Shown: positions 8,268 to 40,639, counted from the first letter of the stretch. The stretch is DNA of 64,000 nucleotides from Escherichia coli (GCF_044324785.1 NZ_CP172127.1), one strand, 5' to 3'. Notes: a model not told the origin generated them from the letters alone. A program made the numbers and translations.

Positions 8268-8293
8268 TCCACAAAAAAGCCCGCAGCGCGGGC
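8268..8293 (-). terminator. Rho-independent terminator of the two-gene cassette
   Basis: Minus strand GCCCGCGCUGCGGGC hairpin followed by UUUUUUG, overlapping stop codon at 8293-8295. Confidence 0.6.
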
Positions 8294-8733
8294 TATTCTT
8301 CTTCATCATTAAAAAGCGGATTGTTGTTTCCATCTGATGAAAGGAAAGGTATGTGTTCTCTTGAAAATCCAACAATGACAATTTCATTATCATTTTTTGC
8401 ATAATGAATGCATTCATTAGAATGCCTTCCGCCAGGGTTGAAATTTAAGTTAATGGTATAATTCTTAAATGTGTTTGGATACCATGTTGGCCCACAATGA
8501 TAATGCCAATAATTCTCTTGCTCATAATTGTCTGAGCCGGGAATTTTATCATGGTTATCATCAACCCACGAGGGCTTGTTTTTTCCAACAAGCGCCCTTC
8601 CATTGGCAACATCCTCTAAAAAACTTTGTATGATTTTTATTTCATCATCAGTAAGGAAAGGTCCGTCTACAGCGAAAGGGGTGTTGCTTTCCCCATGTAG
8701 AAAACTATTAGATATTCTAATGTTAAACTTCAA
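8293..8733 (-). CDS. Unknown 146-aa protein, no internal Met, proposed TTG start, acidic C-terminus (AT-rich cargo gene)
   Basis: Frame of ORF 8293..8874; AGGAG 6 nt before TTG 8733; upstream part of the 193-aa ORF overlaps a better-supported small gene in another frame. Confidence 0.45.
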   Translation of the reverse strand: MKFNIRISNSFLHGESNTPFAVDGPFLTDDEIKIIQSFLEDVANGRALVGKNKPSWVDDNHDKIPGSDNYEQENYWHYHCGPTWYPNTFKNYTINLNFNPGGRHSNECIHYAKNDNEIVIVGFSREHIPFLSSDGNNNPLFNDEEE

Positions 8734-8753
8734 GGAAAACTCCTGATGTGCTT

Positions 8754-8921
8754 CTATTTGGAGCGAAATGCCGCCTTGAAGTCGCTGAAAGATGTTCCTG
8801 TCTGGTAAACCATATCCTTGTCGCGCTCTTTGCTTGCGCGGCCAAGCATAACTTTTCCAATGACATCCCAGCATTGCTTGGCTTGTTCATTGTGCTGAGT
8901 ACGATTTTTCAACGCTGTCAT
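8754..8921 (-). CDS. Unknown small basic protein, 55 aa (MTALKNRTQHNEQAKQCWDVIGKVMLGRASKERDKDMVYQTGTSFSDFKAAFRSK)
   Basis: ATG 8921 preceded by AAAGGAGG at 7-nt spacing; hand-translated; below ORF-track length cutoff. Confidence 0.45.
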   Translation of the reverse strand: MTALKNRTQHNEQAKQCWDVIGKVMLGRASKERDKDMVYQTGTSFSDFKAAFRSK

Positions 8922-8947
8922 ATCGCGCCTCCTTTACCTTTAAGGTA

Positions 8948-8976
8948 ATAGTACGCTATTCACCCACAGTCTGCAA
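8948..8976 (-). promoter_or_regulatory. Sigma70-like promoter of the two-gene cassette (TTGCAG, 17 bp, TACTAT)
   Basis: Minus-strand reading about 27 nt upstream of ATG 8921. Confidence 0.4.
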
Positions 8977-9020: not shown

Positions 9021-9713
9021 TCAGAAGAACCCTGCTTTGTCGTTGATGTACTCCGCGTGCGTCTGGATATCACGCAGGCATTTGCTCACACCGACGATGT
9101 AGCAGAACATGGTGGTCAGCTCCGCCGCCGCGCCCGATACGTCGTGCCCGTCTTCCTGTAACTGGTTCAGCAGATTCATCAGCAGTGAGTTCTCCGTCAG
9201 GCCGAGAACACCAGACGGCGAATGAATCAGGCTGCGGTAGCCGGGCTTCAGCGGGGCGCTGTAGGTTTTGTTCTCTATCTTCATCGCCTGCATTACTGCT
9301 GACGCCGTGGCGTTGGCTACCTGGTCGGCAACCATCTTTATGCGTTCTTCCTGCGGGAGCGAGTTTTTAATGTAACTTCCGGTGCGACGGATCTGAGGAA
9401 GAACCTCACCTGTAACCCATTCAAGAAATCTGAATGCTCTCGTTCCCTCTGTCATTGCCTCTTTGCAACGCAGAATAAGGATGTAGAGACCTGATTCTGA
9501 AACGATGGATAGTTCTTGTATTCCACCAGGGGTCTGTATTGAATACAGCCCCTTTTTGTTCCAGCCTTTTTTATCAAGTTTTCTCGCTTGTGTAACATCA
9601 ATATTCAAAGCATTGCACACATCTTTGGTGACAAACCAAGGTTCTCCGTCAATCATGAACATACGGATCTGGCAGGATGACTCAAAGGAAAAGATGGAAG
9701 GTTTGGTATTCAT
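9021..9713 (-). CDS. Bro-N domain antirepressor-like protein, about 230 aa
   Basis: N-terminal FSF...IR..MIDGEPWFVTKDVCNALNI matches Bro-N/phage antirepressor signature; start ATG 9713 after AAGGTGA. Confidence 0.7.
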   Translation of the reverse strand: MNTKPSIFSFESSCQIRMFMIDGEPWFVTKDVCNALNIDVTQARKLDKKGWNKKGLYSIQTPGGIQELSIVSESGLYILILRCKEAMTEGTRAFRFLEWVTGEVLPQIRRTGSYIKNSLPQEERIKMVADQVANATASAVMQAMKIENKTYSAPLKPGYRSLIHSPSGVLGLTENSLLMNLLNQLQEDGHDVSGAAAELTTMFCYIVGVSKCLRDIQTHAEYINDKAGFF

Positions 9714-9857
9714 GGCGATCACCTTTGTAGTTAGGTTAATCACCACCGCTGAGACCAATCAGATGGTGGTGAACTGTGCAGAGTTGGTCTTACCGGCTAC
9801 AAAGGAACCCGGCGCACCTTTCGGTGCCCCCACACAGCCCACCATAGAATAGGTGCG

Positions 9858-9876
9858 CTTTACACATAAAAAAACC
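9858..9876 (-). terminator. Weak candidate terminator (4-bp GC stem plus U7) ending the LexA-controlled transcript
   Basis: Minus strand GCGG-auaa-CCGC then UUUUUUU. Confidence 0.3.
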
Positions 9877-9890
9877 GCTTATGCGGCATA

Positions 9891-9944
9891 TGTGCCTCTG
9901 TAGTAATCCGGGAGACCAATCCCGGCACTGGATTTTGCCAGTGC
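9891..9944. other. Three-way-junction forming element: 7-bp outer stem enclosing two 6-bp hairpins
   Basis: tagtaat / ccggga-gaccaa-tcccgg / cactgg-attttg-ccagtg / attacta, all perfect complements. Confidence 0.4.
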
Positions 9945-9960
9945 CTGATTACTATGGCAC

Positions 9961-9989
9961 AAGAGGAGTGCTTATATTTACCGCAAAGG
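9961..9989. other. Perfect 12-bp stem hairpin with 5-nt loop
   Basis: cttatatttacc gcaaa ggtaaatataag. Confidence 0.45.
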
Positions 9990-10023
9990 TAAATATAAGC
10001 ACTCCAGTTGGTAATTACAAACC

Positions 10024-10281
10024 TTATCTGGTTTGTTTTCGTAATTGTTCGGCACAATAGTCTAGATGTGTTTGCAGATCCTGCATAGACATCTGTGAGC
10101 TGGTGACGTAGTTAATCAGTGCAGTCAGTTCGGCAAGTGGGCCATCGACATTAAATCCATCCTTATCGAGATCCCGGAGTAATTTCATCAAGTGCGATCC
10201 CTCCACCAGTGACCTGACGCCTCCCGGCGTGTGAATCCTTTCGGTAAATCCGTCTTCCAGTGGATAGTGATACTGCTGCAT
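10024..10281 (-). CDS. 85-aa protein, stand-alone paralogue of the C-terminal domain of the Bro-N protein; candidate SOS-induced antirepressor
   Basis: ATG 10281 after GGAGAAG; alignable to residues about 170-230 of the 9021..9713 product; LexA box 22 bp upstream. Confidence 0.55.
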   Translation of the reverse strand: MQQYHYPLEDGFTERIHTPGGVRSLVEGSHLMKLLRDLDKDGFNVDGPLAELTALINYVTSSQMSMQDLQTHLDYCAEQLRKQTR

Positions 10282-10302
10282 CTTATCTTCTCCATGCAAT
10301 AA

Positions 10303-10318
10303 CTGTATAAATATACAG
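10303..10318. promoter_or_regulatory. LexA (SOS) box CTGTATAAATATACAG
   Basis: CTGT-N8-ACAG with AT-rich spacer, 18/20 match to TACTGTATATATATACAGTA including flanks. Confidence 0.65.
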
Positions 10319-10476
10319 TATCAAATAATTTGTTTGCTATCCAGCACGTTTTGCAAATCACCTGAAAGGTAATATCTTTTCGTATTTATGGATTATCTAT
10401 CCATATGTGGTTTTTCAGGTAATAGAATAACCAGATATGCGGCGCAACGGGTGCTGCGACTATCTGGAGATTTAAC

Positions 10477-13233
10477 ATGACGGTCTCAACCGAAGTTGAC
10501 CACAACGAATACACCGGTAACGGCGCTACGACATCATTTCCGTATACCTTCCGTATTTTCAAAAAATCCGACCTGGTTGTTCAGGTGTCTGACCTGAACG
10601 GGAACGTAACAGAATTGGTTCTGGATACCGGTTATACGGTAACTGGGGCGGGCACTTATAGTGGCGGTTCTGTTGTTCTTCCGTCGCCGCTTGCTGCTGG
10701 ATGGCGAATTACGATAGATCGTGTGCTTGATGTAGTGCAGGAGACAGACCTTCGCAATCAGGGAAAATTTTTCCCCGAAGTGCATGAAGATGCTTTTGAC
10801 TACCTGACGATGCTGATCCAGCAATGTTTTGGGTGGTTCAGACGTGCATTGATGAAACCATCTTTGCTTGCAAAATATTACGATGCAAAGCAAAACAGAA
10901 TTTCTAACCTTGCAGATCCATCACTTGAGCAGGATGCTGTAAATAATCGCTCAATGCGTAATTATGTTGATGCTGCAATCGCCGGAGTTGTTGGTGGTTT
11001 TGGTTGGTTTATTCAGTATGGTTCTGGAGCAGTATACCGAACGTTCCAGGATAAGATGCGGGATAACGTTAACGCTCTTGATTTTGTTCCGTTTGAGCAA
11101 AGATATGCTGCATTAAATTTTGAAGTTGATGCGTCTGAATGGTTAATTAATGCGATAAATTCTGGTGCAAGTGTCGTTAGAATACCTGCAGGTAAATGGA
11201 TGATTTCTAAGAACATAGATGTGCCTCCTGGAGTGTCATTAATTGGTGATGGCATTGATTATTGGGATACATATAGACCAGCGCCTGAAAGATTATTAAA
11301 AAGTTGGAGTAAAGGAACCCATCTTGTATTTACTGGTGATGGAGAAAAAAACAAATATTTTTTTAACATCTCTAATGAAAGACCAGTTAAAATTGTTGAA
11401 GGGATATCTTGTAAGTTCACTGAGTTTACAAATGAAGATTCTGTAGGTGTTACTCCTGCTACACCAAAAGCCATGAGCGTAGCTGTTAGTATCAACAGGG
11501 CATCACAGTTACGCAACCTGAGAATAATGGTAAGTAAAAATGGTATTGAAGGATACAATAACCCTGATTCTTATTCATTGGGTGATGACTGGGATATAGG
11601 GTTGCATGTATACGATAGCTGTGATTCAGTTATTGATAACGTACAGATTGTCGGCTATTGGAGGGTAAAAGGACTACTACTGACAGAAAATGACGGGAGC
11701 CTTTCAATGAAGGGAAATCCTGAAAAAACGCACTTTAATAACGTTTATGTCCAGTCAGGGATCGCGATAAGGAATAGCCCTCAGATTGATCTTGTAAGTA
11801 ATACTGAAAGCTCAGTGACATTTAAACATAAAAAGTCGATGAGAATAACTTCAGTTAAACAGTTTAAAATTGCTGGCAGTGAATTAGTATATACGTATTC
11901 AGATGCATCATTTGATGGAACTAACATCACACTATCTGGTATTTCTCCTGAAATACAAGGTACAATAAGTGTAATCAGGTTTCCGTCAATTGGTAATAAT
12001 TTTAGCGGGACTGTTTTTGAGAATACAGTAGCCACTACTCTTGATCATACATCAGGTAAGCCATCAGAATACTTTGGCCTTCCTGCATCCTTTGCATTAG
12101 AGGTTGATGGTTTCCCTGTTCGTAATTTAAGGTTTGATAAATTCAAAGCTCAAACAACATTTGATAAAGGAAATTGCATTTTTGGTGATTGCCGTGATGT
12201 TAAAATAACATCATCTGAGTTTGAAAATGGAATTATGATTGCGTATAACCTGACCGAGACTCAGGGTTATACAGGAAATCTTAGATTTTTTGCTTCTGAT
12301 CTTCAGAGCAGCGTTAACACAAGTGAGTTTAAACCAAGAGACGCATTTGTAGACAATAGACAAATAAAAACGGAGTTTACTGATGGTTCGTTCATTATAA
12401 AGAACTGGAGGCCTACAGATACAAAAATACAATGGTCGTCTGGAGCAGATGCTATTGTTCTTAGAGAGTCACCTGACGAACAATCAAACGGAAATATTTA
12501 CGGGCATCACATTGATGGTAAAAGATGGATTAATGTTAGTGGATATAACAAAGATATAAATATTTCATCAAGAAACTTAAGCGTAAAAAACCATGGTGAT
12601 GACTCTGCAGTTATTAATATATTCGGCGACTCTGGAAATATTGCCATTAAAGGTAATTTTTCACCAATTATTGATAACAGCAAATCTCTTGGTGCACCAT
12701 CATTTAGATGGGCACAGGTTTATTCTGCGAACGGTTCGATAAACACATCAGATGGTAGAGAAAAAAGTGAACCGATTAGTACAAGTGAGCTCAGCTTGTA
12801 TATGTCTCGTGGTTATGAAGGTGATGCAATTCTGGATGCATGGGGAGATATCAGGATTGTAGCTTTTCGCTGGCTTGATGCCGTCAGGGAAAAGGGAGAT
12901 GGTGCCCGCTGGCATTTTGGTGTTATAGCACAACAAGTGAGAGACGCTTTCCTCGCGCATGGGATTGATGGAACCAGATTTGGCCTTCTCTGTTACGATG
13001 AATGGGATGATAAATACGCGCCAGTGATGGCGGTAAGGATGATCACTAAAGTTGTGGATGGCGTCGAAATTGAGATGGAAGAAGAATACGAAACAGAAGA
13101 GCGAACTCTGGTTTGCAAGGCTGGAAATAGGTGGGGTATCCGTACTGACCAGTGTTTATGGCTTGAGTCAGCTTATTTGCGTAGAAGAATCGAAAAAATA
13201 GAATCACGTCTTGCAATGCTTGAAAGTAGCTAA
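10477..13233 (+). CDS. Tailspike/tail fibre, 918 aa: T7 gp17-like N-terminal anchor, AT-rich central receptor-binding part, C-terminal intramolecular chaperone (peptidase S74-like) domain
   Basis: ORF track; GGAG RBS; N-terminal pattern resembling podovirus fibre anchors; C-terminal SDGREK motif region; GC drop in the middle. Confidence 0.8.
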   Translation: MTVSTEVDHNEYTGNGATTSFPYTFRIFKKSDLVVQVSDLNGNVTELVLDTGYTVTGAGTYSGGSVVLPSPLAAGWRITIDRVLDVVQETDLRNQGKFFPEVHEDAFDYLTMLIQQCFGWFRRALMKPSLLAKYYDAKQNRISNLADPSLEQDAVNNRSMRNYVDAAIAGVVGGFGWFIQYGSGAVYRTFQDKMRDNVNALDFVPFEQRYAALNFEVDASEWLINAINSGASVVRIPAGKWMISKNIDVPPGVSLIGDGIDYWDTYRPAPERLLKSWSKGTHLVFTGDGEKNKYFFNISNERPVKIVEGISCKFTEFTNEDSVGVTPATPKAMSVAVSINRASQLRNLRIMVSKNGIEGYNNPDSYSLGDDWDIGLHVYDSCDSVIDNVQIVGYWRVKGLLLTENDGSLSMKGNPEKTHFNNVYVQSGIAIRNSPQIDLVSNTESSVTFKHKKSMRITSVKQFKIAGSELVYTYSDASFDGTNITLSGISPEIQGTISVIRFPSIGNNFSGTVFENTVATTLDHTSGKPSEYFGLPASFALEVDGFPVRNLRFDKFKAQTTFDKGNCIFGDCRDVKITSSEFENGIMIAYNLTETQGYTGNLRFFASDLQSSVNTSEFKPRDAFVDNRQIKTEFTDGSFIIKNWRPTDTKIQWSSGADAIVLRESPDEQSNGNIYGHHIDGKRWINVSGYNKDINISSRNLSVKNHGDDSAVINIFGDSGNIAIKGNFSPIIDNSKSLGAPSFRWAQVYSANGSINTSDGREKSEPISTSELSLYMSRGYEGDAILDAWGDIRIVAFRWLDAVREKGDGARWHFGVIAQQVRDAFLAHGIDGTRFGLLCYDEWDDKYAPVMAVRMITKVVDGVEIEMEEEYETEERTLVCKAGNRWGIRTDQCLWLESAYLRRRIEKIESRLAMLESS

Positions 13234-13300: not shown

Positions 13301-13462
13301 ATTGTGACTGAGAGGTACACTAGACCATTTTCTGAACGAAATTTTCATTGCCGTAGAAGGTAGAAATACAGCGTTTTGAGGTAACTATTATCCTTAAATG
13401 GTTTATTATGTGTGAATCTTCAATAGTAAGGAGATTGTTATGCGTAATAAACGGTGTTCATT

Positions 13463-18603: not shown

Positions 18604-20847
18604 ATGAAACTGAATGCAACCTATATAAAAATACGTGATAAATGGTGGGGGCTTCCGCTGTTCCTGCCTTCTTTAATCTTGCCCATTTTCGCCCACATTA
18701 ATACTTTCGCGCATATTTCTTCCGGTGGGGTTTTTCTCTTTTATCTGCCTCTGGCACTGATGATCAGCATGATGATGTTTTTCAGCTGGGCGGCATTGCC
18801 AGGGATCGCCTTAGGGATTTTTGTCCGCAAATATGCAGAGCTGGGTTTTTACGAAACGCTCTCATTAACGGCTAATTTTATTATCATTATCATTCTCTGT
18901 TGGGGCGGTTACAGGGTCTTTACTCCCCGGCGTAACAACGTTTCACATGGTGATACCCGTTTAATTTCCCAGCGTATATTCTGGCAGATTGTGTTTCCTG
19001 CAACGCTGTTTCTGATACTTTTCCAGTTTGCCGCATTTGTAGGATTACTGGCGAGTAGAGAAAATCTGGTCGGCGTCATGCCTTTTAACCTCGGGACATT
19101 AATCAATTATCAGGCCTTACTGGTGGGTAATCTGATCGGTGTCCCGCTGTGCTACTTCATCATTCGAGTGGTGCGAAATCCGTTTTATTTACGTAGCTAT
19201 TATTCGCAATTAAAACAGCAGGTTGATGTCAAAGTCACCAAAAAAGAGTTCGCGCTCTGGCTACTGGCATTAGGTGCGTTGTTGTTGCTGTTATGCATGC
19301 CGTTAAATGAAAAAAGCACAATTTTTAGCACCAATTATACCCTGTCATTATTGCTGCCCCTGATGATGTGGGGAGCCATGCGCTATGGTTATAAGTTGAT
19401 TTCGCTGCTCTGGGCGGTCGTGCTGATGATCAGCATCCACAGCTATCAAAATTACATTCCCATTTATCCTGGATATACCACGCAACTGACCATAACCTCC
19501 TCCAGTTATCTGGTATTTTCTTTTATTGTTAATTATATGGCTGTACTGGCAACCCGTCAGCGAGCGGTAGTCAGACGCATTCAGCGGCTTGCGTATGTGG
19601 ACCCGGTGGTTCATCTGCCAAATGTTCGCGCCCTGAATCGCGCGTTGCGTGATGCCCCCTGGTCTGCGCTTTGTTATTTACGCATCCCTGGCATGGAAAT
19701 GCTGGTTAAAAACTATGGCATCATGCTACGGATTCAGTACAAGCAAAAACTTTCTCACTGGCTGTCACCCTTGCTGGAACCGGGTGAAGATGTTTATCAG
19801 CTTTCGGGTAACGATCTCGCGCTGCGACTGAATACAGAATCGCACCAGGAGCGCATTACCGCACTGGATAGCCATCTCAAGCAATTTCGTTTCTTTTGGG
19901 ATGGCATGCCGATGCAACCGCAGATTGGCGTCAGTTACTGCTATGTGCGCTCGCCAGTGAATCATATCTACCTGCTGCTGGGAGAGCTAAATACGGTCGC
20001 CGAACTTTCCATCGTGACCAACGCCCCGGAAAATATGCAGCGTCGCGGGGCAATGTATTTGCAACGCGAATTGAAAGATAAAGTCGCGATGATGAATCGA
20101 CTACAGCAGGCGCTGGAACACAACCATTTTTTCCTGATGGCCCAGCCGATTACCGGTATGCGTGGTGATGTTTACCATGAAATTCTTCTGCGCATGAAAG
20201 GTGAGAATGATGAATTGATCAGCCCCGATAGCTTCTTGCCGGTCGCGCACGAATTTGGTTTATCGTCGAGTATCGACATGTGGGTCATTGAGCATACGCT
20301 GCAATTTATGGCTGAAAACAGAGCGAAGATGCCCGCTCACCGTTTTGCTATTAATCTGTCTCCAACCTCGGTATGTCAGGCTCGTTTTCCTGTTGAAGTC
20401 AGTCAGTTGCTGGCTAAATATCAGATTGAAGCGTGGCAACTTATTTTTGAAGTCACCGAAAGTAATGCTCTGACCAATGTTAAGCAGGCGCAAATCACCT
20501 TGCAGCATCTTCAGGAATTAGGCTGCCAGATTGCGATTGATGATTTCGGCACCGGCTACGCCAGCTATGCGCGGCTTAAAAATGTGAATGCCGATCTGCT
20601 TAAAATTGACGGCAGTTTTATCCGCAATATTGTGTCAAATAGTCTGGATTATCAGATAGTGGCATCGATTTGCCACCTGGCGCGAATGAAGAAAATGCTG
20701 GTAGTGGCAGAGTACGTTGAAAACGAAGAGATCCGCGAGGCGGTGCTCTCTTTGGGGATCGATTATATGCAGGGTTATCTTATTGGTAAGCCGCAGCCGT
20801 TAATTGATACGTTGAATGAAATCGAACCCATTCGCGAAAGTGCCTGA
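18604..20847 (+). CDS. pdeF: Cyclic-di-GMP phosphodiesterase PdeF (YfgF), 747 aa, N-terminal membrane domain and C-terminal EAL domain
   Basis: ORF track; length; synteny next to ppx. Confidence 0.85.
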   Translation: MKLNATYIKIRDKWWGLPLFLPSLILPIFAHINTFAHISSGGVFLFYLPLALMISMMMFFSWAALPGIALGIFVRKYAELGFYETLSLTANFIIIIILCWGGYRVFTPRRNNVSHGDTRLISQRIFWQIVFPATLFLILFQFAAFVGLLASRENLVGVMPFNLGTLINYQALLVGNLIGVPLCYFIIRVVRNPFYLRSYYSQLKQQVDVKVTKKEFALWLLALGALLLLLCMPLNEKSTIFSTNYTLSLLLPLMMWGAMRYGYKLISLLWAVVLMISIHSYQNYIPIYPGYTTQLTITSSSYLVFSFIVNYMAVLATRQRAVVRRIQRLAYVDPVVHLPNVRALNRALRDAPWSALCYLRIPGMEMLVKNYGIMLRIQYKQKLSHWLSPLLEPGEDVYQLSGNDLALRLNTESHQERITALDSHLKQFRFFWDGMPMQPQIGVSYCYVRSPVNHIYLLLGELNTVAELSIVTNAPENMQRRGAMYLQRELKDKVAMMNRLQQALEHNHFFLMAQPITGMRGDVYHEILLRMKGENDELISPDSFLPVAHEFGLSSSIDMWVIEHTLQFMAENRAKMPAHRFAINLSPTSVCQARFPVEVSQLLAKYQIEAWQLIFEVTESNALTNVKQAQITLQHLQELGCQIAIDDFGTGYASYARLKNVNADLLKIDGSFIRNIVSNSLDYQIVASICHLARMKKMLVVAEYVENEEIREAVLSLGIDYMQGYLIGKPQPLIDTLNEIEPIRESA

Positions 20848-37353: not shown

Positions 37354-39069
37354 TTACTTCAGCGGCGAACGGTTACGATCAATGCCGTAGCGTTCGATCT
37401 CTTTATACGGCACGGTTTTTGACTGGCGCTTGCGCACATCAACCAGCGTCACACGGTCGGTACAGGAGTAGCAGGGATCAAGGCTACCGATAATTAGCGG
37501 TGCGTCAGAAACGGTATTGCCGCGCAGCATGTAACGCAGCACTGGCCAGTTGGCGTAGGTGGCGGCACGACAGCGCCAGCGGAACAATTTTTGGTTATCA
37601 CCGAGCATGCTCCAGTGCACGTCTTCACCACGTGGCGCTTCAACAAAGCCCAGCGCGAATGCGTGAGGTTTATAGCTAAAGCCTTCGGTCAGCAGTGGGG
37701 TATCTGGCATGTTGTCGAGGGCAAATTCCAGCATTGCCAGCGAATCAAACGTCTCTTTGACACGGACCATCACGCGGGAGAAGACATCGCCGCCGGTAAA
37801 GGTAAACAGCGTTTTTGGAATATTGCCGTAGTCGGCGTAGGGGTGAGCAAAGCGCAAATCACGGGCAAAACCACTGCCGCGGATCAGCGGCCCTACGGGG
37901 CTATAATCACGGGCGATTTGTCGGTCGAGAATGCCAATGCCCTGAGTGCGTTGTTCCATATTCGGCGTGGCAAGCAGCATCTCTACCAGCTCCGACACGT
38001 CGGCGCGCATCTCGCGCACTAGTTTCAGCGTTTGCAGACGTTGCTCTTTGAGAATATCGCGGCGAACACCACCAATCAGATTCAGACCGTAGGTTTTACG
38101 CGACCCGGTCAGCAATTCCGCCATCGTCATCGACTTTTCCCGCACGCGGAAAAATTGCATAAAGCCGGTATCAAAACCAACAAAATGGCAGGAGAGGCCA
38201 AGGTTGAGCAAATGACTATGCAGCCGTTCGACTTCCAGCAGAATCGAGCGAATAGTATGCGCTCGTTGCGGCACTTCAATCCCCAGTGCATTTTCAACCG
38301 AGTTGGTATAGGCCACACTGTGGGCAAAACCGCAAATCCCACACACGCGGTCGGATAAGAAGGTCACTTCGTTGTAGCCCATCCGCGTTTCTGCCAGTTT
38401 CTCCATGCCGCGATGGACATAAAACAGGCGGTAATCAGCATCGACAATTTGCTCGCCATCCACAAACAAGCGGAAGTGACCTGGTTCATCGGAGGTGATA
38501 TGCAGCGGGCCGACAGGGATCACCCGCGCATCGCTGTTGCCCTCGTTGATAAACGGATACGTTTCGGTATCAGTCGTCGGTTCTGGGCGCAGTCGATAAT
38601 CCATCGCGTCTTTGCGCAGCGGATGCATATCTTCCGGCCAGTCATCGGGCAACACCAGCCGACGCTGATCCGGCAGGCCAACCGGAATCAGCCCGTACAT
38701 ATCGCGAATTTCTCGCTCGCCCCAGACCGCGGCAGGGACGCGCGGTGTGACTGACGGAAACTCCCGACTGTCGGCATCGACCAGTGCCTTCACCACGATC
38801 CAGCATTTTTCGGCCCCTTCCATAGAAAGGGCATAATAAACCGCGTAATGACCGTTAAGTGTCCGCTCGTCGTTGCCAAACAGGACTGGAAGCCAGCCAT
38901 CATGTTGATAATAAAGATAATGCACAACGTCAGGCAGCAGATTGATTTTCACCGTAATGGTGACCTGTTCAGGCGTTTGTCGCTCTTCATCCAGCACCGC
39001 GCCGGGGAACTGCGTTTTCAGGGCGGCGAGAATCGCTTCGCCACGATTTGACGATGAATTAACGTTCAC
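37354..39069 (-). CDS. hyfG: Hydrogenase-4 large NiFe subunit HyfG, start probably GTG at 39069
   Basis: ORF 37354..39114; GGAGA RBS before GTG; C-terminal DPCYSCTDR Ni-binding motif. Confidence 0.8.
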
Positions 39070-40639
39070 TGTGTTTCTCCGAAACAGATGCGGTGCCTGA
39101 AGGCAAAAAATCATGCCAGGTGCTACGTTGTGCAGGCAGGTCGTGCGTCCCTGAGAGGACTATAGTGGAAGCGCTTGCCAGGATCCTGATGACAGGTTGT
39201 GGAATATGCGTTCCCATCGCCAGCATCATGACCAGCAGAATCACCATTGGCGAGGTGGTCAACCAGCCAAGTTCACCCCGGTTAACGGCCTGCGGCGGTT
39301 TCGCCATTAACACCCGCGCAGCCATCCGTACCAGGCCCGCCAGCACCAGCGTTAACAGCAATAACAGCAGGACGATAAGCAGCAGATGATTACGCGCCAG
39401 TCCGGCGGTAACGGTCATAAATTCGCTAAGAAAAATGTTGAAGGGCGGCATCCCGGCCAGCGCCAGCGCACCGCCGCCAAACAACACGGCGGTAAATGGC
39501 ATGATTTTGAGCATCCCACAGACGACGTTGAGATCGCGCGTGCCGTACTTGAGCAGTACATTGCCGGAACCGCAGAACAACAGCGTTTTTGCCAGACTGT
39601 GGTTTAAGGTGTGCAGCAGCGCGGCAAAAATTCCCAGCGGCCCGCCAATGCCTAACGCCACCGCGACCAGTCCCATGTTCTCCACGCTGGAGTACGCCAG
39701 CAGACGCTTAATGTCCCGCTGTACCAGAATGAAAAATGCCGCCACGGCAACCGACAACATGCCGAAGATGAGCAACAACCGGTTGGGGAAATCGCTGCCG
39801 ATGGCCTGGCAAATAATGATGTAATAGCGAATAAGCACCAACAGCGCGCAGTTCAGCAATACGGCGGAGAGCAGGGCGCTGACCGGACTCGGCGCTTCAC
39901 TGTGAGCATCTGGCAGCCAGGCATGCATGGGGAATAGCCCGGTTTTAGTGCCAAAGCCAATTAGCACAAACACAAAGGCCAACAGCATTAATGTTGGGTC
40001 AAGCAAGGACGATTGCTTAAGAACCTCGCTCCAGAATATCGCCATTTCTGCCTGCGGCATAACGCTGGCGGCGTTGGCGTATACCAGCACGGTACCGAAC
40101 AGACCAAAAGCGACACCAACAGTACAAATAATGATGTACTTCCATGCAGCTTCCAGCGATGAACGCTGACCGTAAATGCCTACCAGAAACGCCGAGCTTA
40201 AGGTGGTGGCTTCGATTGCCGCCCACATCACAATCAGGTTATTGCTGGTAACAACCAGCAGCATGGTGAACAAAAACAGATGGAAGAAACCGTAGTAATC
40301 GCACAGCGTAACGGGTGAAAGCTCGCCGTGTGCCACTTCATGACGCATGTAGCCAATCGAGTAAACACCGGTGAGAAAGCCAATCACACCAAGAATGGCG
40401 AGGAACAAACCGCCCAGACCATCAATGTGAAGCCACAGTCCCGCAGCGAATATTTCTCCCGCATCAGCGGCAGTTTGGACCACCCACAGTGCCAGAATCA
40501 GCAGCAGTGTGATCCCTAAGCCATGTAGTACTGTCACCGTACGAGTCGCAGAGTGTCCCCGTTTCCGGCAGGCAAAACAGAGCAGCGAAAAAAGCAGCGG
40601 CGTGAGCAGGAGTAAAGCGAACATCACAAAATAACTCAT
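39059..40639 (-). CDS. hyfF: Hydrogenase-4 membrane subunit HyfF, 526 aa
   Basis: NuoN/L-like antiporter-type membrane protein. Confidence 0.85.

What the first reader, a model, noticed from the sequence alone, without database searches (positions are those of the whole stretch)
10337..10440. Repeated motifs in the divergent control region between the LexA-controlled gene and the tailspike
The 195-bp intergenic region contains two copies of AGGTAATA (about 10368 and 10425) and two of TATCCA (about 10339 and 10401) at roughly 60-bp spacing. These are possible binding sites for a phage late activator or repressor coordinating the divergent promoters.
Basis: seen in the sequence. Interest (0 to 1): 0.25.

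Follow-up and report, generated by a model that had tools for sequence, protein, structure and literature searches.

The report
Prophage repressor operator between two promoters
The repeated short words are parts of four different control elements (a repressor operator and pieces of two back-to-back promoters) in an already characterised type of prophage SOS switch, so the region is real regulatory DNA but largely ordinary and known.

Summary
The words are present: AGGTAATA at 10367-74 and 10417-24 (50 bp apart, not 60) and (C)TATCCA at 10337-43 and 10397-403 (60 bp apart). Repetition alone is at chance level: 30% of shuffles of the 195-bp region contain a repeated 8-mer and 75% a repeated 7-mer.

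The window carries the right arm of a phiV10/epsilon15-type (Uetakevirus) prophage. The leftward gene is a close homologue of the SPC32H antirepressor Ant (PDB 5D50).

- **AGGTAATA copy 1** is the right half of a 17-bp palindrome, ATCACC-TGAAA-GGTAAT. This motif has about 14 intergenic copies per related genome, and the homologous epsilon15 site is annotated as repressor-binding.
- **TATCCA copy 1** is the -35 hexamer (TGGATA, bottom strand) of the LexA-covered ant promoter.
- **TATCCA copy 2** overlaps the tailspike promoter -35 (TCCATA) and is not conserved as a word.
- **AGGTAATA copy 2** is GGTAA plus the start of the tailspike -10 (TAGAAT). It is invariant in 95 relatives. It belongs to the signature CATAT-N2-GGTT-N5-GGTAATA, which the tailspike promoter shares with the portal-operon promoter.

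What binds the promoter-proximal signature remains open.

The parts
10024..10281 (-). ant: 85-aa small antirepressor, homologue of SPC32H Ant
   Evidence: phmmer hit to PDB 5d50_E 'Anti-repressor protein', E 4e-47 over residues 2-84. phrog_450, and the C-terminal part of phrog_1760 'anti-repressor'. Corresponds to phiV10p24 and epsilon15 gp19.
10287..10293 (-). ribosome-binding site of ant (GGAGAAG on the bottom strand)
   Evidence: Read from the sequence. The block CTCC is conserved in the alignments.
10303..10318 (.). LexA box CTGTATAAATATACAG
   Evidence: Exact CTGT-N8-ACAG match. It is conserved in 10 phages. SPC32N differs from SPC32H by CTGT>CTTT exactly here, which matches the published description that a LexA-site mutation makes Ant constitutive (my recollection of the Kim & Ryu 2013 abstract; the LexA control of ant is also described in review PMC7380047).
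10315..10323 (-). ant promoter extended -10: TG (10323-10322), one base, then TACTGT (10320-10315)
   Evidence: TGGATA-17-TACTGT is the positionally conserved bottom-strand promoter in 9 of 10 phages. It scores 5 or more in 99% of 95 relatives. CAAA at 10322-10325 is 93-95/95 conserved. The transcription start site (TSS) has not been measured.
   Evidence: T10338, T10340, C10341, C10342, A10343 and G10344 are 93-95/95 conserved.
10357..10373 (.). 17-bp palindromic operator ATCACC-TGAAA-GGTAAT for the phage Rep repressor; contains AGGTAATA copy 1
   Evidence: One mismatch to ATTACC-N5-GGTAAT. It aligns with the epsilon15 protein_bind 'repressor' feature at 19895-19911. Motif count in phiV10 is 8 exact and 14 with at most 1 mismatch, against 0.02 and 0.68 in shuffles. 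Half-sites are 93-95/95 conserved while the 5-bp spacer varies.
10374..10398 (.). AT-rich linker of fixed length and variable sequence
   Evidence: The sequence varies, but 44 nt separate the operator and GGTAATA copy 2 in 92 of 95 relatives. The epsilon15 record predicts an IHF site here, but the window has no IHF-consensus match with fewer than 2 mismatches.
10399..10412 (+). box B (ATCCATATGTGGTT), which contains the tailspike promoter -35 (TCCATA, 10400-10405); TATCCA copy 2 (10398-10403) overlaps its left edge
   Evidence: T(T/C/A)CATA-17-TAnAnT is found in 10 of 10 phages and scores 6.6 or more in 95 of 95 relatives. AT.CATAT and GG.TT are 93-95/95 conserved. For the box B family, phiV10 has 5 sites with at most 2 mismatches against 0.17 in shuffles.
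10418..10428 (+). GGTAA (lone operator-like half-site at -17 to -13) fused to the tailspike promoter -10 TAGAAT (10423-10428); contains AGGTAATA copy 2
   Evidence: GGTAATA is 95/95, A10426 is 95/95 and T10428 is 95/95. The composite CATAT-N2-GGTT-N5-GGTAATA occurs exactly twice per genome, before the portal operon and before the tailspike, in 5 genomes. The implied site centre is +50 bp from the operator in all genomes.
10439..10457 (+). GC-rich hairpin in the tailspike leader
   Evidence: Four pairs are conserved in 8 sequences, with no compensatory change. Its role is unknown.
10466..13233 (+). tailspike RBS (GGAG, 10466-10469) and gene (ATG 10477; 918 aa)
   Evidence: Relatives annotate tail fiber/tailspike here.
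9977..9993 (.). second copy of the operator (TTTACCGCAAAGGTAAA), lying in the 17-bp spacer of a symmetric promoter-like palindrome upstream of the C4-RNA/Bro-N ant-like module
8933..8949 (.). third copy of the operator (TTTACCTTTAAGGTAAT; contains the third AGGTAATA of the window), upstream of the leftward YafO-like module

Best explanation
The 104-bp stretch is the core of the divergent control region of a phiV10/epsilon15-type prophage. Reading left to right, it holds four elements.

1. **The ant promoter**, read leftward. Its -35 is TGGATA, its -10 is TG-n-TACTGT, and the host LexA box covers the -10 and the start site.
2. **One 17-bp palindromic operator** for the phage's non-cleavable, tetrameric Rep repressor.
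3. **A linker** of fixed length and variable sequence.
4. **The tailspike promoter**, read rightward. Its -35 is TCCATA, its spacer is 17 bp, and its -10 is TAGAAT.

The four 'repeat' copies are pieces of these four different elements, not a repeated binding unit.

**Mechanism**
- In the lysogen, LexA keeps ant silent, and Rep occupies this operator and about 14 sister operators across the prophage.
- DNA damage removes LexA. Ant is then made, and Ant tetramers pull Rep off DNA. This step is shown for SPC32H and inferred here by homology.
- Early promoters then fire, and the tailspike promoter becomes active.

**How Rep acts on the tailspike promoter (inferred only)**
- The operator lies at about -70 from the predicted tailspike start and about -57 from the predicted ant start, so it occludes neither core promoter.
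- I infer that it anchors a Rep tetramer whose second pair of DNA-binding domains reaches the invariant GGTAA half-site at -17 to -13 of the tailspike promoter, 50 bp away.
- Alternatively, a further factor reads the invariant promoter-proximal signature.
For: **Identity of the system**
- The region is 92-98% identical to phiV10-like prophages and about 75% identical to epsilon15, SPC32H and Tyrion.
- Ant matches PDB 5d50_E at E 4e-47. The phiV10 repressor matches 5d50_A at E 4e-42 and has HTH domains but no peptidase domain.

**Operator**
- The epsilon15 record annotates the homologous 17-mer as a repressor site.
- The motif counts are 8 exact and 14 near-exact in phiV10, against 0.02 and 0.68 expected.
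- The motif lies at the same intergenic places in ZX5, Tyrion, 65FD and epsilon15. These include 2-3 sites between the repressor and cro-like genes and 2-3 at the leftward early promoter.
- There are three copies in the window, each upstream of a leftward gene.

**Promoters**
- Both are positionally conserved in a position-weight-matrix scan.
- The invariant bases fall on T-12, A-11 and T-7 of the tailspike -10, and on the TG and -35 of the ant promoter.
- The SPC32N mutation falls in the aligned LexA box.

**Rep geometry**
- Rep is a tetramer. Its two DNA-binding pairs are about 100 Å apart, and its tetramerisation fold is linked to DNA looping (PMC9638917; PMC9986798).
- Operator pairs recur at fixed spacings of 62, 48, 30/31 and 17/18 bp. 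The portal promoter's lone GGTAAT sits exactly 62 bp from its operator in five genomes.
- The operator-to-promoter distance here is fixed in 92 of 95 relatives.
Against: - No binding or transcript-start data exist for this prophage, and the primary SPC32H and epsilon15 papers could not be read. The operator assignment therefore rests on a database annotation, motif statistics and homology.
- The operator overlaps neither core promoter, so simple occlusion cannot be the mechanism here.
- The pseudo-site at the tailspike promoter has only one recognisable half (left half GTGGTT versus ATTACC). Its 50-bp spacing is not one of the spacings seen between full operators (48, 62).
- The invariant GGTT and CATAT bases are not explained by Rep.
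- The simple consensus scan did not call either promoter. The tailspike -35 is weak in the E. coli lineage (3 of 6).
Confidence: 0.72

Rival explanations
1. The promoter-proximal signature (box B plus GGTAATA, covering TATCCA copy 2 and AGGTAATA copy 2) is the recognition site of a dedicated late-gene regulator rather than of Rep. The protein would bind between -35 and -10 of the two virion-gene promoters and switch them on.
For: - CATAT-N2-GGTT-N5-GGTAATA (16 fixed bases) occurs exactly twice per genome, on the late-gene strand, before the portal operon and the tailspike gene, in five genomes.
- Its bases are 93-95/95 conserved, including spacer positions that sigma-70 does not read.
- Both promoters have weak -35 hexamers in E. 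coli phages.
- A conserved 112-aa Cys-rich protein called 'transcriptional regulator' (phrog_536) is encoded immediately upstream of the terminase genes.
Against: - No late activator is known for this genus.
- The candidate protein has no Pfam, NCBIfam or PDB match, and its model is poor (pLDDT 56).
- Box B relatives also sit at early promoters, and at varying positions relative to the -10. That fits a repressor site at least as well as an activator site.
- In Salmonella phages the tailspike promoter is a good sigma-70 promoter without help (score 10.6).
Confidence: 0.3
2. The repeats are chance coincidences in AT-rich DNA, and the word pairs carry no shared function.
For: - Repeated 8-mers occur in 30% of shuffles of the region and repeated 7-mers in 75%.
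- TATCCA is not enriched in intergenic DNA.
- TATCCA copy 2 is not conserved outside the E. coli lineage.
- The two TATCCA copies map to different strands and registers of two different -35 hexamers.
Against: - Every copy lies in sequence that is conserved for its own reason.
- Both AGGTAATA copies contain the operator half-site GGTAAT, which is strongly enriched in intergenic DNA: 14 of 42 copies against 2.7 expected, and AGGTAATA 6 of 6. For that pair, therefore, a common reader (Rep) remains possible.
Confidence: 0.5
3. The operator is the 17-bp spacer of a Rep-repressed rightward promoter (TTGCAA at 10351-56, then 16 bp, then TATCTT at 10373-78). This promoter gives a second, upstream tailspike transcript. 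The architecture is the same one seen at the early rightward promoter and at the 9977-9993 site.
For: - It is the best top-strand hit in the window (score 8.0), and BUCT554 scores 8.6.
- T10352 and G10353 are conserved.
- An operator in the spacer is the arrangement at the phiV10 early rightward promoter and at window 9965-10005.
Against: - Only 22% of 95 relatives score 5 or more (median 1.9).
- The critical -7 base (10378) is A37/T33/G22.
Confidence: 0.15

Closest known systems
Rep-Ant-LexA antirepression switch of Salmonella podophage SPC32H (Kim & Ryu 2013; Kim et al. 2016; PDB 5D50/5D4Z)
   Same: - Ant is a close homologue (hit to 5d50_E at E 4e-47), and the relatives' repressor is homologous to Rep.
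- ant sits in the same place, next to the tailspike gene.
- The LexA box is at the aligned position, and the SPC32N constitutive mutation falls in it.
- The operator, -35/-10 blocks and spacing align without gaps.
   Different: - The host is E. coli.
- The operator left half is ATCACC instead of ATTACC.
- The tailspike -35 is weaker (TCCATA versus TTCATA).
- This prophage carries two extra leftward modules, each with its own operator: a C4-RNA/Bro-N module and a YafO-like module.
- I could not read the primary papers, so I do not know which operators were tested experimentally.
Predicted repressor-binding sites annotated in the epsilon15 genome record NC_004775.2 (Kropinski et al. 2007)
   Same: Seven 16-17-bp 'repressor / lysogeny' features are annotated. 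One, at 19895-19911, is the positional homologue of window 10357-10373.
   Different: - The annotation is a prediction.
- It omits about half of the sites my scan finds, including those between the repressor and cro-like genes.
- It does not mention the promoter-proximal half-site or box B.
- It predicts an adjacent IHF site that the window sequence does not support.
Phage P1 C1 repressor with dispersed operators, the immI c4-ant module, and late promoters with an inverted repeat in place of the -35 (recalled from knowledge)
   Same: - One repressor has many operators scattered over the genome, including one before an antirepressor operon.
- Rfam finds a C4 antisense RNA in the window before the Bro-N gene.
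- The late-type promoters here carry a conserved element between -35 and -10.
   Different: - The P1 operators are asymmetric 17-mers, and C1 is unrelated to Rep.
- No Lpa-like activator is identified here.
- The resemblance is functional, not a tested membership.
LexA-controlled antirepressors of coliphage 186 (Tum) and Salmonella Gifsy/Fels-2 prophages (PMC3121763; review PMC7380047)
   Same: The logic is the same: a non-cleavable repressor is inactivated by a small antirepressor whose promoter is under LexA.
   Different: - Those proteins are not detectably homologous to this Ant (no such hit).
- In my recollection of the Kim & Ryu 2013 abstract, the SPC32H-type Ant is called structurally distinct from the antirepressors of sipho- and myoviruses.
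- Those systems have no tailspike promoter back to back.
Mycobacteriophage L5 gp71 'stoperators' (recalled from knowledge)
   Same: Many copies of one repressor site are distributed in short intergenic regions throughout the genome, including regions before late genes.
   Different: The L5 sites are asymmetric 13-mers that are orientation-dependent and block elongation. The sites here are palindromic and sit in or upstream of promoters.

Membership tests
Uetakevirus (epsilon15/SPC32H-type) Rep operator | 17-bp palindrome ATTACC-N5-GGTAAT | tested here: met
   10357-10373 reads ATCACCTGAAAGGTAAT, with 1 mismatch. The same C variant is present in 26 of 95 relatives and in other phiV10 operators.
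Uetakevirus (epsilon15/SPC32H-type) Rep operator | Positional homology with a site attributed to the repressor | tested here: met
   It aligns column for column with the epsilon15 protein_bind 'repressor' feature at 19895-19911.
Uetakevirus (epsilon15/SPC32H-type) Rep operator | Multiple copies far above chance, clustered at the immunity region and other promoters | tested here: met
   phiV10 has 14 sites against 0.68 expected. The same holds in four more genomes. The window has three copies in its 1.5-kb leftward module. The prophage's own immunity region lies outside the window.
Uetakevirus (epsilon15/SPC32H-type) Rep operator | Bound by Rep protein | not testable with these tools
   This needs EMSA, footprinting or ChIP. 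The primary papers are not held.
LexA-repressed antirepressor promoter (SPC32H ant type) | CTGT-N8-ACAG box overlapping the promoter of an Ant homologue | tested here: met
   The box at 10303-10318 overlaps the predicted -10 at 10315-10320. The gene downstream matches 5d50_E.
LexA-repressed antirepressor promoter (SPC32H ant type) | Loss of the box derepresses ant | tested here: inconclusive
   The only SPC32H/SPC32N difference within the aligned intergenic stretch before the tailspike start codon is CTGT>CTTT in the box. This is consistent with the published phenotype, which I recall from the Kim & Ryu 2013 abstract and could not re-read here. Nothing was tested for this prophage.
Sigma-70 promoter (tailspike) | -35 and -10 hexamers 17 bp apart, conserved in position | tested here: met
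   TCCATA-17-TAGAAT. The equivalent pair is found in 10 of 10 phages and 95 of 95 relatives with score 6.6 or more. The start site has not been measured.
   TATCCA copy 2 varies (C10401 is 60/95), the spacings differ (50 versus 60 bp), and the contexts differ.
IHF site next to the operator (as annotated in epsilon15) | Match to WATCAANNNNTTR | tested here: not met
   No match with fewer than 2 mismatches in 10320-10440. This stretch is the least conserved part of the region.

The most novel reading that the evidence does not exclude
The invariant signature CATAT-N2-GGTT-N5-GGTAATA occurs twice per genome, only before the portal operon and the tailspike gene. The wider 14-bp box B family (AACCATATATGGTT, an ACC-N6-GGT relative of the ACC-N5-GGT operator) sits at other promoters. 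Together they may be the DNA code of an undescribed second layer of control in this phage genus. One possibility is a new late regulator, for example the conserved 112-aa Cys-rich protein encoded just before the terminase genes. The other is a Rep tetramer closing 50-62-bp micro-loops between a strong upstream operator and a weak promoter-proximal half-site.
Probability: 0.3. Interest if true: 0.45.

Novelty: new member of a known kind. Interest (0 to 1): 0.2.

Why it matters
It shows how this widespread group of E. coli and Salmonella prophages (hits in 545 of 5426 complete E. coli genomes) wires an SOS-triggered antirepressor back to back with a virion gene. It also gives exact coordinates for the operator and both promoters.

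The practical value is for annotation and for engineering phiV10-type reporter or typing phages. The only open biology is what reads the invariant promoter-proximal signature, and how a repressor bound 60-80 bp upstream silences late promoters.

Tried and rejected
- **Primary literature.** The epsilon15 genome paper (PMC2698709), Kim & Ryu 2013 (PMC3807360) and Kim et al. 2016 (PMC4983836) are not held. I used the epsilon15 GenBank features and secondary descriptions instead. The ZX5 paper defines no operator.
- **Simple consensus promoter scan.** It found neither promoter in the intergenic region. A weight-matrix scan across homologues did.
- **IHF site.** It is annotated in epsilon15, but the window has no acceptable consensus match.
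- **RNA element in the region.** Rfam has no hit inside 10282-10476. The leader hairpin has no covariation.
- **Operator-embedded rightward promoter.** It scores well in the window but is not conserved.
- **Pseudo-site 10407-10423 as a full operator.** The left half does not match (by eye).
- **Sigma-54, CRP and extended -10 readings of the tailspike promoter.** I considered these by eye and rejected them because the spacing and bases do not fit.
- **Identifying the box B binder.** The cro-like gp41 and the Cys-rich gp55 have no Pfam, NCBIfam or PDB matches. The gp55 AlphaFold model has pLDDT 56, so I ran no fold search. The ribbon-helix-helix look of its N-terminus is only my reading of the alignment.

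Full report
**Observation**

- AGGTAATA lies at 10367-10374 and 10417-10424.
- CTATCCA lies at 10337-10343 and 10397-10403.
- The spacings are 50 and 60 bp, not a common 60.
- A perfect LexA box, CTGTATAAATATACAG, lies at 10303-10318.

The repetition itself is unremarkable. In 1000 dinucleotide shuffles of the region, 30% contain a repeated 8-mer and 75% a repeated 7-mer. TATCCA is common and not enriched in intergenic DNA.

AGGTAATA is different. Its only three copies in 64 kb fall within 1.5 kb. In phage phiV10, all six copies are intergenic, against 0.4 expected.

**What the locus is**

Window positions 1 to about 15,500 are the right arm of a phiV10/epsilon15-type (genus Uetakevirus) prophage.
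- The query region is 92-98% identical to phiV10-like phages and prophages, which are found in 545 of 5426 complete E. coli genomes.
- It is about 75% identical to Salmonella phages epsilon15, SPC32H and SPN1S and to Enterobacter phage Tyrion.

The leftward 85-aa gene is a close homologue of the SPC32H antirepressor Ant (PDB 5d50_E, E 4e-47). The repressor of the relatives (phiV10 gp40) is homologous to SPC32H Rep (5d50_A). It has helix-turn-helix domains and no peptidase domain.

In SPC32H, Rep is not cleaved during the SOS response. It is inactivated by Ant, whose promoter is held by LexA (review PMC7380047). Rep binds palindromic sites as a tetramer, and an Ant tetramer dismantles it (PMC9638917; PMC9986798).

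**AGGTAATA copy 1 is half of the Rep operator**

In a 10-phage alignment the copy sits in an invariant inverted repeat, ATTACC-N5-GGTAAT, whose 5-bp centre varies freely. The window version is ATCACC-TGAAA-GGTAAT at 10357-10373.

The same palindrome occurs twice more in the window, at 8933-8949 and 9977-9993, each upstream of a leftward gene.

In complete genomes the motif is far above chance. phiV10 has 8 exact and 14 one-mismatch sites, against 0.02 and 0.68 in 200 shuffles.

The sites lie at equivalent intergenic positions in phiV10, ZX5, Tyrion, 65FD and epsilon15. These positions are:
- 2-3 sites between the repressor and cro-like genes;
- 2-3 sites at the leftward early promoter;
- sites before the terminase, portal, tailspike, lysis, integrase, replication and nin-like operons.

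The epsilon15 RefSeq record already annotates seven of them as protein_bind 'repressor / lysogeny'. One, at 19895-19911, is the exact homologue of the window site. So the element is real, and it is already predicted in a public record.

**TATCCA copy 1 is the -35 of the ant promoter**

A weight-matrix scan of the ten homologues finds one positionally conserved bottom-strand promoter, TGGATA-17-TACTGT, in 9 of 10. It scores 5 or more in 99% of 95 unique IMG/VR relatives.
- On the top strand, TGGATA reads TATCCA (10338-10343).
- The -10 (10320-10315) is preceded by an invariant TG (10323-10322), giving an extended -10. The LexA box overlaps it.
- SPC32N, which by my recollection of the Kim & Ryu 2013 abstract makes Ant constitutively, differs from SPC32H by CTGT>CTTT in this aligned box.
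- The transcription start (about 10308) is inferred, not measured.

**TATCCA copy 2 and AGGTAATA copy 2 belong to the tailspike promoter**

The only top-strand promoter conserved in all ten phages and all 95 relatives is T(T/C/A)CATA-17-TA(G/C/A)A(A/C)T, with scores of 6.6-10.6. In the window this is TCCATA (10400-10405) and TAGAAT (10423-10428).

TATCCA copy 2 (10398-10403) overlaps the -35 by chance of lineage. C10401 is only 60/95, and the word is absent from the Salmonella, Enterobacter and Klebsiella versions.

AGGTAATA copy 2 is GGTAA at -17 to -13 plus the TA of the -10. GGTAATA, A10426 and T10428 are 95/95 invariant. The conserved T-12, A-11 and T-7 explain part of this. The invariant GGTAA, GG.TT (10409-13) and AT.CATAT (10399-10406) go beyond what sigma-70 reads.

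**The unexplained layer**

The composite CATAT-N2-GGTT-N5-GGTAATA (16 fixed bases) occurs exactly twice in each of five complete genomes. Both copies are on the late-gene strand, just before the portal operon and the tailspike gene.

Its left part belongs to a family I call box B, close to the palindrome AACCATATATGGTT.
- phiV10 has five sites with at most 2 mismatches, against 0.17 in shuffles.
- All lie in promoter regions: portal, tailspike, lysis, replication and nin-like operons, plus the leftward early promoter in Tyrion.
- The position relative to the predicted -10 is not constant, and the box often lies 4 nt from a GGTAAT.

Two readings remain open.

(a) *The GGTAA is a weak second Rep contact.*
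- Rep is a tetramer with two DNA-binding pairs about 100 Å apart and a looping-type tetramerisation fold.
- Full operators recur in pairs at 62, 48, 30/31 and 17/18 bp.
- The portal promoter's lone GGTAAT sits exactly 62 bp from its operator in five genomes, and the tailspike one sits at 50 bp.
- The 44-nt gap between the operator and GGTAATA copy 2 is kept in 92 of 95 relatives although its sequence varies.

(b) *A separate regulator reads the signature.*
- One candidate is the conserved 112-aa Cys-rich protein encoded just before the terminase genes (phrog_536).
- That protein has no family or structure match, and its model is poor.

Neither reading can be tested with these tools.

**Mechanism, with status of each step**
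- Shown by homology to an experimentally studied system: LexA represses ant; after DNA damage Ant is made and removes Rep from DNA.
- Shown here by sequence statistics and conservation: the operator, both promoters, and their fixed geometry.
- Inferred: the operator lies at about -57 from the ant start and about -70 from the tailspike start, so it occludes neither core promoter. It probably works as an anchor for a tetramer reaching the promoter-proximal half-site, or together with a second factor.
- Rejected as a conserved feature: an operator-embedded rightward promoter (TTGCAA-16-TATCTT). It scores well in this window but is not conserved.

**Comparison, novelty and verdict**

The locus is a member of the SPC32H/epsilon15 Rep-Ant-LexA switch; all features testable in silico are met.

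It works like the LexA-antirepressor switches of phage 186 and the Gifsy prophages. In its dispersed operators it works like P1 C1 or L5 gp71, without being a member of those families.

This is a control region with regulator sites, but the 'two repeated units' are an accident of four unrelated elements.

Interest is low (0.2). The residual novelty lies in the promoter-proximal signature and box B.

Noticed in passing
window 9762-9957 (- strand): Rfam finds three hits between the Rep operator at 9977-9993 and the Bro-N antirepressor-like gene (9021-9758). They are a C4 antisense RNA (RF01695, 9762-9849, 78.6 bits, above gathering), an isrK Hfq-binding RNA (RF01394, 9868-9944, 74.7 bits, above gathering), and c4 a1/b1 target sequences (RF03163, 9905-9957, 38.4 bits, below gathering). 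This looks like a P1 immI-type c4-ant module, so the prophage carries two antirepressor systems side by side.
   Followed up: partly
window 9965-10005: The operator at 9977-9993 is the centre of a 41-bp perfect palindrome, GGAGTGCTTATA-TTTACCGCAAAGGTAAA-TATAAGCACTCC. This gives CTTATA-17-TATAAG on both strands, a symmetric promoter-like site with the operator as its spacer.
   Followed up: partly
window 8293-8949 (- strand): A third operator (8933-8949) abuts a strong AGGAGG ribosome-binding site and a 55-aa ORF (8754-8921). That ORF overlaps a 193-aa ORF (8293-8874) whose counterpart in strain N1131 is annotated as a YafO-family toxin (phrog_5954; no Pfam hit). It may be a Rep-controlled toxin-antitoxin-like cargo module.
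   Followed up: no
window 13376-13409: The upstream region of the lysis cassette reads GGTAAC-tatt-ATCCTTAAATGGTT-TATTAT. That is a half-site, 4 nt, a box B copy (3 mismatches), and then directly a good -10. Here box B fills the promoter spacer, unlike at the tailspike promoter.
   Followed up: partly
window 10010-10033: A lone GGTAAT (10010-10015) is followed after 4 nt by a box B-like AACCTTATCTGGTT (10020-10033) at the 3' end of ant. The same pair is present in phiV10, ZX5 and Tyrion. It overlaps the last ant codons, so coding constraint may explain it.
   Followed up: no
window 10439-10457: A GC-rich hairpin (GCGGCGC-AACGG-GTGCTGC) lies in the tailspike 5' leader. Its four core pairs are conserved in 8 phages, with no compensatory changes. 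Its function is unknown.
   Followed up: partly
L006 (phiV10) 38766-39104; not in the window: The last early gene before the terminase genes encodes a conserved 112-aa protein. It has a basic N-terminus, a strand-helix-helix pattern, and a C-terminal CxxC...CPC...C motif. It has no Pfam, NCBIfam or PDB match. It is a candidate late regulator.
   Followed up: partly
L006, L007, L008, L009, L012 (complete relatives): Full operators come in pairs at recurrent centre-to-centre spacings. The spacings are 62 bp (leftward early promoter and nin-like operon promoter), 48 bp (outer pair at the immunity region, split 17+31), 18 bp (before terminase) and 76 bp. They are identical across E. coli, Enterobacter and Salmonella phages.
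   Followed up: partly
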